Positions 1 through 4,545 of a stretch of 64,000 nucleotides of DNA are shown here, piece by piece. A program made the translations under genes and the position numbers. The notes beneath the pieces were generated by a model, which saw only the letters and a list, made by a program, of their open reading frames with translations, was not told the origin of the DNA and ran no database searches. Each line of letters begins with the position of its first letter. Position 1 is the first letter of the stretch. The stretch comes from Bacilli bacterium (GTDB taxonomy: Bacteria; Bacillota_I; Bacilli_A; RF39; UBA660): positions 15,565 to 79,564 of the forward strand of contig JAFQES010000008.1 in NCBI GenBank assembly GCA_017398945.1. The letters run 5' to 3'.

Positions 1-1
1 A

Positions 2-862
2 AATAATACCAAAGTAATACCTGCTCGTATAATTGGTAGTAAGGCTGAAACAAACGCAGTAATTGAGTTGTTACTATTAAAAGAATTAAATGATGATGTT
101 TGGGAATGTTTAGCTAAGCCAGCAAAACGTTTGAAAATAGGAACCGAAGTAACTTTTGGAGACGAATTAAAAGCAGTTGTAACCGAAAAGTTAGATGATG
201 GCATGGTTCATGTAAAATTTATTTACGAAGGAATCTTTTTACAAATATTAGATAGACTAGGGGAAATGCCACTTCCACCATATATCAAAGAAAAATTAGA
301 AGATAAAGATAGATATCAAACGGTATATGCTAAATACGAAGGAAGTGCAGCAGCACCAACTGCCGGGCTTCATTTTACTCAAGAACTTTTAGAGAAAATA
401 AAAGAAAAAAATATTCAAATTTGTTATGTTACACTACATGTGGGACTGGGTACATTTAGACCAGTTGAAGAAGAAAATATTTTAAATCATAAAATGCATA
501 GCGAATTTTACAAGATGGATGAAGAAACTGCTAATGTTTTAAACCATGCTAAAAAAAATGGAAAAAACATTATAGCTGTTGGTACAACTTCTACAAGAGT
601 TTTAGAAACCATAATGGAAAAATATAATTGTTTTAAAAAGTGTAGCGGCTATACTGAGATATTTATTTATCCTGGATATAAATTTAAAGCGCTAGATGCT
701 TTAATTACTAATTTTCACTTACCTAAGAGTACATTATTAATGCTTATTAGCGCATTAGCAACTAAAAATAATGTTCTAAACGCTTATAAAGAAGCAATTA
801 AAGAAAAATATCGTTTCTTTTCATTTGGAGATTCAATGTTTATTACAAACAAAAAATTCTGA
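2..862 (+). CDS. queA: S-adenosylmethionine:tRNA ribosyltransferase-isomerase QueA, 5' end cut by the window edge
   Basis: The frame is open from nt 2 ([29 protein letters not shown]...). QueA hallmarks are present: [68 protein letters not shown]. Confidence 0.93.
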
Positions 863-880
863 ATTTCAGAATTTTTTTTA
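851..880. terminator. Bidirectional rho-independent terminator between convergent queA and the 173-aa ORF
   Basis: Perfect 8-bp stem aattctga (855-862) / tcagaatt (866-873) with a 3-nt loop. An A-run lies 5' and a T-run 3'. It overlaps both stop codons. Confidence 0.7.
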
Positions 881-1399
881 AAAAGTTTTTCTTCCTTGTG
901 TACATTTAGCAAGATGCTCTTTAATTTCTTCATTTTTTTGTTCTTCGATCATTTGAAGATACTTTCTTTCTAACATAAATAATTTCAAATCCCAAAAACC
1001 TAGATACTTTTCGCTAAATTCTTTAATTTCAGCTATAGTCGAATTATTTCTTGATGATTCAATTAACATAAAAGTTGGATCTGTGACAAACATAATAAAT
1101 AAAAGTAATTCAGCAGCATTTTCAACAGAAACTCTCGTGCATGTTGATCCAAAAGAAAAAGAACCGATATTAATACTATTTTGAGATGCTGAACTATATG
1201 CTTTTTGAACAGCTCTAGACCATCTTGAGTTAAAAGAATATCTCTCCAATTGATTTTGTAAAGAATATTTTGCTGCCAATTCAACTAAGGAGTGTATTTT
1301 TTCAGATGGAATGTTAACTATATCAATGATTTTTAATTTTGCGTAAAATTCTATATGCTCCTTTTTTAAAGTTATTAGTTTATCAGATTTTTCTATCAT
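878..1399 (-). CDS. Hypothetical 173-aa soluble protein, second gene of the cassette inserted between queA and tgt
   Basis: Intact ORF. Its start overlaps the upstream ORF's stop in an ATGA (1396-1399). No recognisable motif. The C-terminal half resembles that of the upstream ORF. Confidence 0.7.
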   Translation of the reverse strand: MIEKSDKLITLKKEHIEFYAKLKIIDIVNIPSEKIHSLVELAAKYSLQNQLERYSFNSRWSRAVQKAYSSASQNSINIGSFSFGSTCTRVSVENAAELLLFIMFVTDPTFMLIESSRNNSTIAEIKEFSEKYLGFWDLKLFMLERKYLQMIEEQKNEEIKEHLAKCTQGRKTF

Positions 1400-1926
1400 A
1401 AATTACCTCCATCAATTTTTCTGTTTAGTACTTGCTCACTTCTATCAGAAGATAGTTTGTTTTGAAGTAAACAATAATGTAATTCAATTGCGTAAAGCTT
1501 AGGACTATAAAAACCGAATGTTAAATATAATCGTTGGCGTACATCATCAATATTTTGATATTCTGAGAATGCTGCTTTATATTCCGTTAAATATTTAAGT
1601 TCATTATCGCATACCATCATTATAATTAAACCTATTTCCTCTAAACTATTAAACGTGTAATTAAAATTACTAAGTATAGTAGTATTTTGTATATCATTTA
1701 ATAATTGTAAAGCACCACTAAAATAGTCAGCTACTGAATGATTTGCGTAATAATAATTCGGTTTTTTCGCGATTATTTTAGTTTTAATATCTTCAGACAA
1801 TATTTTTAGTTCTTCCAATCTTTCTTTTGAAATAGCTAAAATTTTTCTGGTTGGTAAAGATTCAAATCTTGACTGAACTACTTTATTATCATAAATATTC
1901 TTTTTTTCTGGCAAAAAAATCATCAT
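1396..1926 (-). CDS. Hypothetical 176-aa soluble protein, first gene of the cassette inserted between queA and tgt
   Basis: Intact ORF with a strong SD (GAGGGG) 5-6 nt upstream of ATGATG and a consensus promoter upstream. No recognisable domain. Confidence 0.72.
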   Translation of the reverse strand: MMIFLPEKKNIYDNKVVQSRFESLPTRKILAISKERLEELKILSEDIKTKIIAKKPNYYYANHSVADYFSGALQLLNDIQNTTILSNFNYTFNSLEEIGLIIMMVCDNELKYLTEYKAAFSEYQNIDDVRQRLYLTFGFYSPKLYAIELHYCLLQNKLSSDRSEQVLNRKIDGGNL

Positions 1927-1948
1927 AACCCCTCATTTCTAATGATGT

Positions 1949-1977
1949 ACTATACAATATTTTGCTAAAATTGTCAA
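1949..1977 (-). promoter_or_regulatory. Sigma-A type promoter for the 1926..878 operon
   Basis: On the minus strand: TTGACA (1977-1972), 17-nt spacer, TATAGT (1954-1949). Confidence 0.6.
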
Positions 1978-2003
1978 ATTATCTACTAATTTAGTAGTCA
2001 TTT

Positions 2004-2012
2004 TGGTATAAT
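2004..2012 (+). promoter_or_regulatory. Extended -10 element (TGgTATAAT) upstream of tgt
   Basis: tggtataat at 2004-2012. The -35 is poor. The element lies only about 10-18 nt from the candidate tgt start codons. Confidence 0.4.
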
Positions 2013-2020
2013 CTTTTTGA

Positions 2021-3452
<1,432 letters not shown>

Positions 3453-3461
<9 letters not shown>

Positions 3462-3827
3462 TTCATTGCTTTTTTTATTTATACCAATAATTGAACCAAA
3501 AACACTACTTAATAATAAAATAAAATAATATATTATTCTTTTAAAATTAAAAGAACTATTAAATAATATTAAATTTAAAATTATAAAAGATGCAATCATT
3601 ATTAAACTTACTTTAAAACCAGCTATATACCCTTTATTTTGACGTTTTTTTCCGCCTGAAAAACCCGCTATAAAAAATATAGCCACTGTTATTAATAATA
3701 AAATATATTTTGTTATATTATAACTTAAACCTAAATAATTAAATAAGCTAAGCATTGTTATTAATAAAATTACAATTCCTGCAATAATCAATCCGTTTTT
3801 TATTTTCTTTAAACATTTTACCATCAT
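3453..3827 (-). CDS. Small polytopic membrane protein, possibly YrzE/TIGR04086-like
   Basis: 124 aa with about four hydrophobic segments. It sits next to a spoVB-like gene, as yrzE does in B. subtilis. The family assignment rests on position and architecture only. Confidence 0.5.
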
Positions 3828-3897
3828 ATCACCTAATTTATCTTATTCAAATGTTTAAAAATTTATGAAAGTTATCATAATATAAATGGTGATTTTA

Positions 3898-4545
3898 ATG
3901 GAATTATTTCAGGTAGTAACCAAAACAATCTTTTTTTACTTTTTTATAATATTAGCTTACCGTTTAATGGGGAAAAGAGAAGTAGGACAACTAGGGATAA
4001 TTGATTTAATTGTAACGATTTTAATTGCAGAATTAACGGCTATTAGTATTGAAAATCCAGAAAATTCGGTTTTTTTAACAATTTTTCCTATAGTTACCTT
4101 AGTAATATTAGAAATGGGGTTATCTTTTATATCCCTTAAATCTAGAACATTTAGAACAATTTTTGGTGGAAAGCCTAGCTTAATAATTAGTAATGGAAAA
4201 GTAAATTATCATGAAATGATAAAACAAAGATATACTTTAGATGATCTACTAATGAGTTTGCGTCAAAATGAAATCAGAAACATTGAAGAAGTAGAATACG
4301 CTTTTTTAGAGCCGAATGGAAAATTATCGATTTTTAAATACGGGATATTTAAAACTAAAAAAGCTTATCCTATGCCCTTAATCGTAGATGGTAAAGTCCA
4401 AGAGAAAGCTTTATTATTCATAAAAAAAGATAAAGATTGGTTAATGAATCAAATTATTGAGAAAAACTTGAGCTTAGACAATATTTTCTATGCCTTTTAT
4501 AAAAACAATAAAATTTATGTTATTAGAACAACTAATTTAAAATAG
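3898..4545 (+). CDS. DUF421 (YetF-type) membrane protein
   Basis: N-terminal motif YRLMGKREVGQLGIIDLIVTILIAEL, typical of DUF421, followed by a soluble C-terminal domain. GGTGA SD lies before ATG 3898. Confidence 0.75.
   Translation: MELFQVVTKTIFFYFFIILAYRLMGKREVGQLGIIDLIVTILIAELTAISIENPENSVFLTIFPIVTLVILEMGLSFISLKSRTFRTIFGGKPSLIISNGKVNYHEMIKQRYTLDDLLMSLRQNEIRNIEEVEYAFLEPNGKLSIFKYGIFKTKKAYPMPLIVDGKVQEKALLFIKKDKDWLMNQIIEKNLSLDNIFYAFYKNNKIYVIRTTNLK

What the first reader, a model, noticed from the sequence alone, without database searches (positions are those of the whole stretch)
878..1977. Self-promoted antisense two-gene cassette of paralogous unknown proteins splits the conserved queA-tgt pair
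queA and tgt are adjacent and co-oriented in B. subtilis (ruvAB-queA-tgt-yajC). Here a 1.05-kb minus-strand unit sits between them. It has its own near-consensus promoter (TTGACA-17-TATAGT, 1977-1949) and a strong GAGGGG SD. Its two ORFs of 176 and 173 aa are coupled by an ATGA overlap (1396-1399). It ends at a perfect bidirectional hairpin shared with queA (851-880). Neither protein has a TM segment, a signal peptide or any motif I recognise. Their C-terminal halves align by eye: SLEEIGLIIMMVCDNELKYL...RLYLTFGFYSPKLYAIELHYCLLQ versus NAAELLLFIMFVTDPTFMLI...EKYLGFWDLKLFMLERKYLQ. That suggests a duplicated hetero-pair. A compact, autonomous, coupled pair of paralogues at a synteny break fits a toxin-antitoxin, abortive-infection or other accessory two-component module.
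Basis: partly seen in the sequence, partly recalled or inferred. Interest (0 to 1): 0.6.

Follow-up and report, generated by a model that had tools for sequence, protein, structure and literature searches.

The report
Fast-evolving orphan paralogue pair beside tgt
The two antisense genes between queA and tgt are real, anciently duplicated members of an undescribed, very fast-evolving helical protein family that has held this slot across many genera of uncultured small-genome gut Bacilli, as single, paired or fused copies; nothing supports a toxin-antitoxin system and the function is unknown.

Summary
Two coupled minus-strand ORFs (about 175 and 173 aa) lie between queA and tgt, with their own promoter, Shine-Dalgarno sites, an ATGA overlap and a weak shared hairpin.

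The two proteins are true paralogues over their whole length (hhalign of their two subclades: 98.7%, E 2e-16).

They are not a newly inserted cassette. They belong to an undescribed family with about 78 clusters among 1.84 billion representatives. It has no Pfam, NCBIfam, PADLOC, PHROG, PDB or Foldseek match.

I found the family only in this order, in 36 other sampled genomes. In 29 of them the gene sits in the queA|tgt gap, usually divergent from tgt.

Relatives carry one gene, a tandem pair (three independent cases) or a fused two-domain protein (two independent fusions). This suggests a dimer as the working unit, here an A-B heterodimer (inferred).

The pair evolves 13-17 times faster than its neighbours (dN/dS 0.47-0.63 against 0.03-0.09). 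In a sister species the upstream copy is a decayed stump.

Toxin-antitoxin and abortive-infection readings have no support. Function is unknown; a non-catalytic binding or regulatory dimer is my best guess.

The scan has noted variable orphan genes in the queA|tgt gap in other phyla before.

The parts
2..862 (+). queA, 3' part (the gene runs off the window start)
   Evidence: ORF. It is 92% identical to the G002 queA. The L041 orthologue carries Pfam Queuosine_synth.
851..877 (.). AT-rich bidirectional hairpin between the convergent queA and ORF B: 12-bp stem, 3-nt loop, 2 G-C pairs, overlapping the queA stop codon
   Evidence: Sequence and fold (z = -2.05). The consensus terminator scan does not call it.
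878..1399 (-). ORF B, 173 aa, B-type member of the new helical family
   Evidence: The AlphaFold model has pLDDT 88 and pTM 0.82.
1405..1410 (-). Shine-Dalgarno site GGAGGT of ORF B, inside the 3' end of ORF A, 5 nt before the ATG; the ATGA stop/start overlap is at 1396-1399
   Evidence: Read directly from the sequence.
1396..1926 (-). ORF A, 176 aa (more likely 175 aa from the ATG at 1923), A-type member of the same family
   Evidence: The AlphaFold model has pLDDT 80 and pTM 0.75.
1929..1934 (-). Shine-Dalgarno site GAGGGG of ORF A
   Evidence: Sequence. The same site is present in G002.
1949..1977 (-). Sigma-70-type promoter of the A-B unit, TTGACA-17-TATAGT
   Evidence: 11 of 12 matches. 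The TTGACA hexamer and the -10 element are conserved in G002, G003, G004 and the L041 species.
1983..1997 (.). Perfect 7-1-7 palindrome CTACTAATTTAGTAG between the two divergent promoters
   Evidence: Sequence. It is not conserved in G002 or the L041 species, so its role as an operator is doubtful.
2004..2012 (+). Candidate extended -10 promoter of tgt (TGgTATAAT)
   Evidence: Read from the sequence. TATAAT is conserved in all five congeners. This is an inference.
2021..3160 (+). tgt (tRNA-guanine transglycosylase); the likely true start is the ATG at 2030 (MKFEY...)
   Evidence: The orthologue carries Pfam TGT.

Best explanation
ORF A and ORF B are two anciently diverged paralogues of an undescribed, lineage-restricted family of soluble, mostly helical proteins of about 150-190 aa. 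Each has seven or eight helices and one beta-hairpin.

The family is an old resident of the queA|tgt slot in one order of uncultured small-genome gut Bacilli. It is normally transcribed away from tgt from its own sigma-A-type promoter. It is not a mobile cassette.

I infer that the working unit is a dimer. Single-gene relatives would form homodimers, fused two-domain relatives an internal pseudo-dimer, and the window's pair an A-B heterodimer. Coupled translation (B's own Shine-Dalgarno site plus the ATGA overlap) would keep the two proteins in roughly equal amounts.

The conserved residues are mostly hydrophobic core positions and helix-capping Asp/Ser-Pro motifs, with two conserved Glu. No Cys or His stands out as conserved. 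I therefore think it is a non-catalytic binding or regulatory protein whose partner changes fast, not an enzyme. The partner is unknown.

Shown: the genes, the paralogy, the family, its distribution, its position and its rate of change. Inferred: dimerisation and non-catalytic binding.
For: Homology of A and B: (hhalign 98.7%, E 1.9e-16).

Family size and architectures: 78 representatives, either single-domain (140-195 aa) or two full domains (275-314 aa).

No known family or fold.

Tree:
- The A and B subclades each hold representatives beyond the window's own gene (10 more in the A subclade, 4 more in the B clade proper).
- The N and C domains of the fused forms are each monophyletic, so one old fusion.
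- P0027 is a second, independent fusion.
- Independent tandem pairs occur in G477 and G448, in other clades.

Position: 29 of 36 other genomes have the gene in the queA|tgt gap or directly divergent from tgt. Two more have it one small gene downstream of tgt.

Vertical descent: presence clusters by genus. dS is about 1.0-1.2 for A and B, against about 0.7-1.0 for the neighbouring genes, with NG86 near saturation. G+C is 26-27% against 27% for the window.

Confident models with the same topology.

Coupling signals.
Against: No interaction was tested. The structure tool takes one chain only, and the fused relatives could not be handed to it.

Duplication and fusion also happen to proteins that do not dimerise.

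Three acidic positions (E97, D107, E148 in A numbering) are invariant or nearly so in every clade and in both halves of the fused forms. A metal or catalytic site is therefore not excluded.

The family was detected in only about 5-7% of the order's genomes. The 'old resident' reading therefore needs many losses, or divergence beyond detection.
Confidence: 0.5

Rival explanations
1. Conflict-type accessory genes. The proteins would be immunity-like or anti-phage specificity factors that evolve in an arms race. The queA|tgt gap would be a tolerated slot for such cargo.
For: - dN/dS is 0.47-0.63 against 0.03-0.09 for all the neighbouring genes compared.
- Copy number varies within one genus: pair, single, none, or single plus stump.
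- The family is patchy across the order.
- In related genera the same gap holds unrelated cargo: GGDEF, a RimK-like ATP-grasp protein, a second orphan family, and giant ORFs.
- Earlier scan notes report orphan, HEPN or Abi-like genes in this gap in other phyla (leads only).
Against: - There is no PADLOC hit and no toxin or effector gene nearby.
- No relatives were found in phage, plasmid or viral collections.
- The family stays at one locus with genus-level vertical descent and shows no compositional anomaly.
- dN/dS is below 1, which relaxed constraint explains equally well.
Confidence: 0.2
2. A tgt- or queuosine-linked factor. The protein would regulate tgt or assist Tgt or tRNA handling in organisms that depend on salvaged queuosine precursors.
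For: - The gene is divergent from tgt, with back-to-back promoters, in most carriers.
- In genus g88 and in the P0096 contigs queA is no longer adjacent, and the gene stays with tgt.
- The genome has tgt, queA and queH. No QueC, QueF, QueT or YhhQ was found in a 95%-complete assembly.
- About 20 of the top 50 Foldseek hits of model B are ribosomal protein uS7, an RNA-binding fold with the same helix-hairpin-helix order (the uS7 topology is from my own knowledge).
Against: - Most genomes of the order have tgt without this gene.
- In G167 the gene stays by queA, with 6.5 kb of cargo between it and tgt. Several fused forms lie elsewhere.
- The uS7 hits are not significant (E at least 0.66, TM 0.15-0.19), and hhalign against a uS7 alignment gives a probability of 0.1-0.2%.
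- No DNA-binding motif was found, and the intergenic palindrome is not conserved.
- Conserved order-level synteny alone would keep any gene born in this gap next to tgt.
Confidence: 0.12
3. Young or decaying genes of no function that drift nearly neutrally.
For: - dN/dS is high.
- A sister species holds a truncated stump.
- The distribution is narrow, and there are no known domains.
Against: - Frames are intact in at least 13 genera although dS is saturated.
- Motifs are conserved across all clades.
- AlphaFold models are confident (pLDDT 80 and 88).
- Promoter and Shine-Dalgarno sites are conserved.
- dN/dS is clearly below 1.
Confidence: 0.1
4. A type II toxin-antitoxin or two-component abortive-infection module.
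For: The unit is compact and self-promoted, has two coupled genes and is dispensable.
Against: - Both genes encode the same fold.
- Single-gene forms predominate in the family.
- No toxin, antitoxin or defence profile matches.
- One partner has decayed in a sister species while the other is kept.
- Fused single-chain versions exist.
Confidence: 0.03

Closest known systems
Type II toxin-antitoxin operons (e.g. RelBE, MazEF)
   Same: Two small genes, translationally coupled, with their own promoter, and dispensable between close relatives.
   Different: Here the two products are paralogues with one fold. Most relatives are single genes or fused chains. No toxin or antitoxin domain or DNA-binding domain was detected.
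Orphan or poly-immunity loci of polymorphic toxin systems (SUKH/SMI1-KNR4 and Imm families)
   Same: Small soluble proteins that evolve fast, occur as tandem paralogues and include decayed copies.
   Different: No toxin gene lies nearby, and no Imm or SUKH profile matches. The family keeps one chromosomal slot across many genera. Fused two-domain forms are common.
Paralogous hetero-complexes that arose from homodimers by duplication (e.g. B. subtilis YlbF/YmcA; from my own knowledge)
   Same: Small helical paralogues, and a series of single, paired and fused forms that would be expected if the unit is a dimer.
   Different: There is no sequence relation (Pfam is negative). Dimerisation has not been tested here.
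Ribosomal protein uS7 (Pfam PF00177)
   Same: The same order of secondary structure: three helices, a beta-hairpin, then three or four helices. About 20 of the top 50 Foldseek hits of model B are uS7 chains.
   Different: TM-scores are 0.15-0.19 and E is at least 0.66. The hhalign probability is 0.1-0.2%. The hairpin is the most variable part of this family, whereas it is conserved and basic in uS7. Model A gives no uS7 hits.
ruvAB-queA-tgt(-yajC) block of Bacillus subtilis and E. coli
   Same: The flanking genes and their order; ruvA-ruvB-(folD-glyA)-queA ... tgt is seen in L008 and L041.
   Different: An antisense orphan gene or gene pair lies between queA and tgt. Related genera carry other cargo in the same gap.

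Membership tests
Type II toxin-antitoxin system | One product carries a recognisable toxin domain (RelE, MazF, VapC, HipA, Doc, etc.) | tested here: not met
   Pfam, NCBIfam and PADLOC give no hits for A, B or 56 family members.
Type II toxin-antitoxin system | Two different proteins, a toxin and a cognate antitoxin that usually has a DNA-binding domain | tested here: not met
   A and B are homologous end to end and share one predicted topology. No HTH, RHH or AbrB match was found.
Type II toxin-antitoxin system | One gene is toxic alone and is neutralised by the other | not testable with these tools
   This needs expression in a laboratory host.
Known anti-phage defence systems (PADLOC-DB) | Match to a profile of a known or candidate defence protein | tested here: not met
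   One search gives no family at E up to 1.
Mobile cassette or genomic islet | Foreign composition, mobility genes or repeats, relatives on phages or plasmids, and a phylogeny unlinked to the host | tested here: not met
   G+C is 26-27%, as for the window. There are no phage, plasmid or viral relatives. Presence clusters by genus at one locus. dS is about 1.1-1.2 for A and B and 0.7-1.0 for the neighbouring genes, with NG86 near saturation. No formal congruence test was done.
Ribosomal protein uS7 fold | Significant structural or profile similarity to uS7 | tested here: not met
   The best Foldseek E is 0.66 with TM 0.15-0.19. The hhalign probability is 0.1-0.2%.
New family defined here (helical protein of the queA|tgt slot) | Full-length match to the family profile, with the motifs E-x9-D-P and G-F-Y/F-D/S-x-K-L-x3-E | tested here: met
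   An HMM built from clades II and III only scores A at 42.6 bits and B at 74.2 bits. The motifs are visible.
New family defined here (helical protein of the queA|tgt slot) | Located in the queA|tgt gap and transcribed away from tgt | tested here: met
   See the window. The same holds in 29 of 36 other carrier genomes.

The most novel reading that the evidence does not exclude
The family is a new fold of tRNA- or Tgt-associated accessory protein, with a helix-hairpin-helix order like that of the RNA-binding protein uS7. It would tune queuosine insertion in gut bacteria that lack de novo preQ1 synthesis and every known precursor transporter. Its rapid change would reflect adaptation of that salvage step.
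Probability: 0.08. Interest if true: 0.8.

Novelty: new variant of a known kind. Interest (0 to 1): 0.4.

Why it matters
The result adds a well-delimited protein family with no known fold relative. The family shows, within one order, the whole series from single gene to tandem pair to fused two-domain protein, each step more than once. That makes it a natural test case for how homodimers become heterodimers and then single chains.

It also shows that the queA|tgt junction in these reduced genomes is a long-lived slot for fast-evolving genes. This matches notes from other phyla in this scan.

If the family turned out to act on Tgt or tRNA, it would bear on how salvage-dependent gut bacteria handle queuosine. 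As it stands the function is unknown and the organisms are uncultured, so the immediate value is modest.

Tried and rejected
1. Single-sequence and six-sequence searches of the 5.8-billion-protein index found only the genus's own proteins.
2. Two metagenome-contig scans (A3, A2) and one viral-contig scan (A7) found nothing. The search for related loci with A1 failed because it had no conserved stretch to search with.
3. Pfam, NCBIfam, PADLOC and PHROGs gave only noise: OTCace_N, rpoE and a few PHROGs at E above 0.04.
4. A PDB sequence-profile search gave one chance hit, glyoxalase I at E 0.11.
5. Foldseek of model A against the PDB and BFVD gave no significant hit.
6. The uS7 lead from Foldseek of model B was rejected on TM-score and on hhalign.
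7. The operator idea for the 15-bp palindrome at 1983-1997 was dropped, because the palindrome is not conserved in G002 or the L041 species.
8. Rfam found no RNA family in 1-4000, so no preQ1 riboswitch.
9. The A-clade profile found nothing among about 350 genomes of other families of the class.
11. A literature search for queA, tgt and hotspot gave nothing relevant.

Full report
**What is there**

The window starts inside queA (to 862, plus strand) and tgt follows at 2021-3160 (plus strand). Between them lie two minus-strand ORFs: A (1396-1926, 176 aa) and B (878-1399, 173 aa).

The sequence shows the ATGA overlap at 1396-1399. It also shows a GGAGGT site 5 nt before B's ATG, and a GAGGGG site before A. 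That site is 2 nt from the first ATG and 5 nt from the second, so A probably starts at 1923. This agrees with the 175-aa database cluster P0001 and with the G002 orthologue.

TTGACA-17-TATAGT (1977-1949) is the best promoter-like site in the region, 11 of 12. The region as a whole has no excess of such sites.

The hairpin at 851-877 is real but weak. It has a 12-bp stem with 2 G-C pairs, z = -2.05, and the terminator scan does not call it.

G+C of A and B (26-27%) equals that of the window (27.2%). No Rfam family lies in 1-4000.

**Are A and B paralogues?**

BLASTP alone is borderline: E 0.058, aligned at the same positions in both proteins.

With relatives the answer is clear:
- A six-sequence alignment runs end to end.
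- hhalign of the A pair against B plus the single-copy relatives gives E 2e-4.
- With the window's own proteins left out, hhalign of the A clade against the B superclade gives 98.7%, E 1.9e-16, over 146 columns.
- The A-clade HMM scores B at 40.6 bits, and the B-superclade HMM scores A at 34.9 bits.
- An HMM built only from the distant clades II and III scores B at 74.2 and A at 42.6 bits.

The AlphaFold models (A: pLDDT 80, pTM 0.75; B: pLDDT 88, pTM 0.82) share one topology: three helices, a beta-hairpin, then four helices, the last one long.

**The family**

No Pfam, NCBIfam, PADLOC or PHROG model matches A, B or 56 relatives. No PDB sequence matches. No PDB or BFVD fold matches.

The word-indexed search of 5.8 billion proteins found only the genus's own proteins. 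The exhaustive HMMER search of 1.84 billion representatives found 78 at E up to 1e-3.

These come in two architectures. One is a single domain of 140-195 aa. The other is 275-314 aa with two full copies of the domain.

Conserved features (A numbering):
- an N-terminal F-Y-x2-L ... I-x2-E-R-I-x-E motif;
- E97;
- D107, usually followed by P, at the end of helix 4;
- G-F-Y/F-D/S-x-K-L;
- E148.

Both halves of the fused forms keep them. Most of these positions look like core residues or helix caps. No Cys or His stands out as conserved.

**Where it lives**

The genome is a 1.2-Mb, 95%-complete MAG of a small-genome lineage of class Bacilli. Its congener G002 is 'Bacilli bacterium RGIG3081, goat rectum'.

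Within the genus:
- G002 has the A-B pair at the same spot. A is 44% and B 33-35% identical, while queA and tgt are 92-93% identical.
- G003 and G004 have one antisense gene of the B superclade.
- G001 has queA and tgt 26 bp apart.
- A further close species (L041; tgt 94% identical) has a B-type gene behind the same promoter. A 393-bp gap upstream of it holds a stop-interrupted stump of a second family member. The stump matches the N-terminal part of the family HMMs at 17 bits, E 2e-7 for a single comparison.

Across the order, profile scans of about 400 sampled genomes each found the family in 19 of 400 and 29 of 400. Presence clustered by genus.

I checked the flanks with tblastn. Of 36 other carrier genomes:
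- 29 have the gene in the queA|tgt gap or directly divergent from tgt;
- two (G084, G400) have it antisense, one small membrane-protein gene downstream of tgt;
- three (G065, G266, G195; all fused forms) have it elsewhere;
- two could not be placed.

Where queA is no longer next to tgt, the gene stays with tgt (genus g88 and the P0096 contigs). In G167 it stays next to queA, with two giant ORFs between it and tgt.

No relative was found in about 350 genomes of other families of the class. None was found in phage, plasmid or viral-contig collections.

**How it evolves**

The maximum-likelihood tree puts A and B in two well-supported subclades of clade I. Each holds representatives beyond the window's own gene (10 more with A, 4 more in the B clade proper), so the duplication predates the genus.

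The N and C domains of the fused proteins are each monophyletic, which means one old duplication plus fusion. P0027 is a separate fusion. Tandem pairs in G477 and G448 belong to other clades, so they are independent duplications.

Between G000 and G002, dS is about 1.1-1.2 for A and B and about 0.7-1.0 for the five neighbouring genes; NG86 is near saturation. dN, however, is 0.54 for A and 0.70 for B, against 0.027-0.082 for the neighbours. The resulting dN/dS is 0.47 and 0.63 against 0.03-0.09.

The genes are therefore kept, but under much weaker or diversifying constraint.

**What it probably is**

The evidence does not fit a mobile cassette or a toxin-antitoxin pair. It fits a resident, lineage-specific, fast-evolving gene family.

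The repeated appearance of single, paired and fused forms is what one expects if the working unit is a dimer. I therefore read A-B as a heterodimer made in roughly equal amounts by coupled translation. This is inference; no interaction could be tested.

The lack of a catalytic-looking signature points to a binding or regulatory protein whose partner is unknown.

Three rival readings remain open:
- A conflict or immunity-like role. It fits the rate, the copy-number changes and the slot, which holds unrelated cargo in related genera: GGDEF, RimK-like ATP-grasp, PpiC plus a repeat protein, and a second orphan family shared by G022 and G008 at E 5e-33.
- A link to tgt or queuosine. It fits the divergent promoters and a genome with tgt, queA and queH in which no QueC, QueF, QueT or YhhQ was found. 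But adjacency in a syntenic block is weak evidence, and most tgt-bearing genomes of the order lack the gene.
- Near-neutral drift of a functionless gene. Intact frames, conserved motifs and confident folds across at least 13 genera argue against it.

**The uS7 lead**

About 20 of the top 50 Foldseek hits of model B are ribosomal protein uS7. From my own knowledge, uS7 has the same helix-hairpin-helix order.

The hits are not significant, however (E at least 0.66, TM 0.15-0.19). Model A gives none. hhalign against a uS7 alignment gives 0.1-0.2%. I keep this only as a lead.

**Comparison with earlier notes of this scan**

One search lists several follow-ups on other genomes that found orphan, hypervariable or defence-like genes in the queA|tgt gap (e1-957106, e1-946928, e1-803234, e1-1333095, e1-763093). 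By sequence look-up none is the same family.

They agree with my finding that this junction is a recurrent slot for variable genes. I did not test their claims beyond my own order.

**Limits**

- No multimer prediction was available, and no AlphaFold-DB fold library.
- Counts are from sampled genomes and incomplete MAGs, so absence is 'not found in those searched'.

**Verdict**

This is an undescribed family with an instructive evolutionary pattern and unknown function.

Noticed in passing
whole genome G000; queH at L095 (G000:C20:92577-93098): The 95%-complete genome has tgt, queA and queH. No QueC, QueF, QueT or YhhQ/Vut_1 was found. It seems to depend on salvaged preQ1 or queuine-type precursors, taken up by an unidentified transporter.
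   Followed up: partly
window 1983-1997: A perfect 15-bp palindrome, CTACTAATTTAGTAG, lies between the divergent A-B and tgt promoters. It is not conserved in G002 or the L041 species.
   Followed up: partly
window 2004-2030: tgt seems to have an extended -10 promoter (TGgTATAAT) only about 18 nt before its likely start (the ATG at 2030, MKFEY...). It has no good -35 element, so the leader would be very short. The listed GTG at 2021 is probably not the start.
   Followed up: no
window 3132-3461 (+): A 109-aa protein with a single TM segment overlaps the 3' end of tgt. It is conserved downstream of tgt in other genera (37% identity to the G084 protein, E 3e-12; also in G400 and G002). It sits where yajC sits in model bacteria, but it was not identified.
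   Followed up: partly
L012 455-1651 (G022) and L023 1000-2163 (G008): A second orphan family (398 and 387 aa, 26% identity, E 5e-33, no Pfam match) occupies the same queA|tgt gap in two other genera.
   Followed up: partly
L126 1714-5304 and 5370-8111 (G167): Two giant ORFs (1196 and 913 aa) with similar-looking N-termini lie between the family gene and tgt.
   Followed up: no
L040 166-645 (G003:C122): G003 has a second family member (159 aa, the 'copy2' clade of the B superclade) away from tgt, next to a 166-aa membrane-anchored protein. This clade has five other representatives.
   Followed up: partly
L129 3906-5468 and L131 3869-5430 (G065, G266): Here the fused 297-aa family member lies next to a 192-203-aa P-loop protein (GPSGVGKT), far from tgt. 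This is a different neighbourhood for the fused form.
   Followed up: no
window 1405-1410; P0001: A 99%-identical strain variant of A (P0001) reads ...DVGNL instead of ...DGGNL. This change would fall inside B's GGAGGT Shine-Dalgarno site.
   Followed up: no
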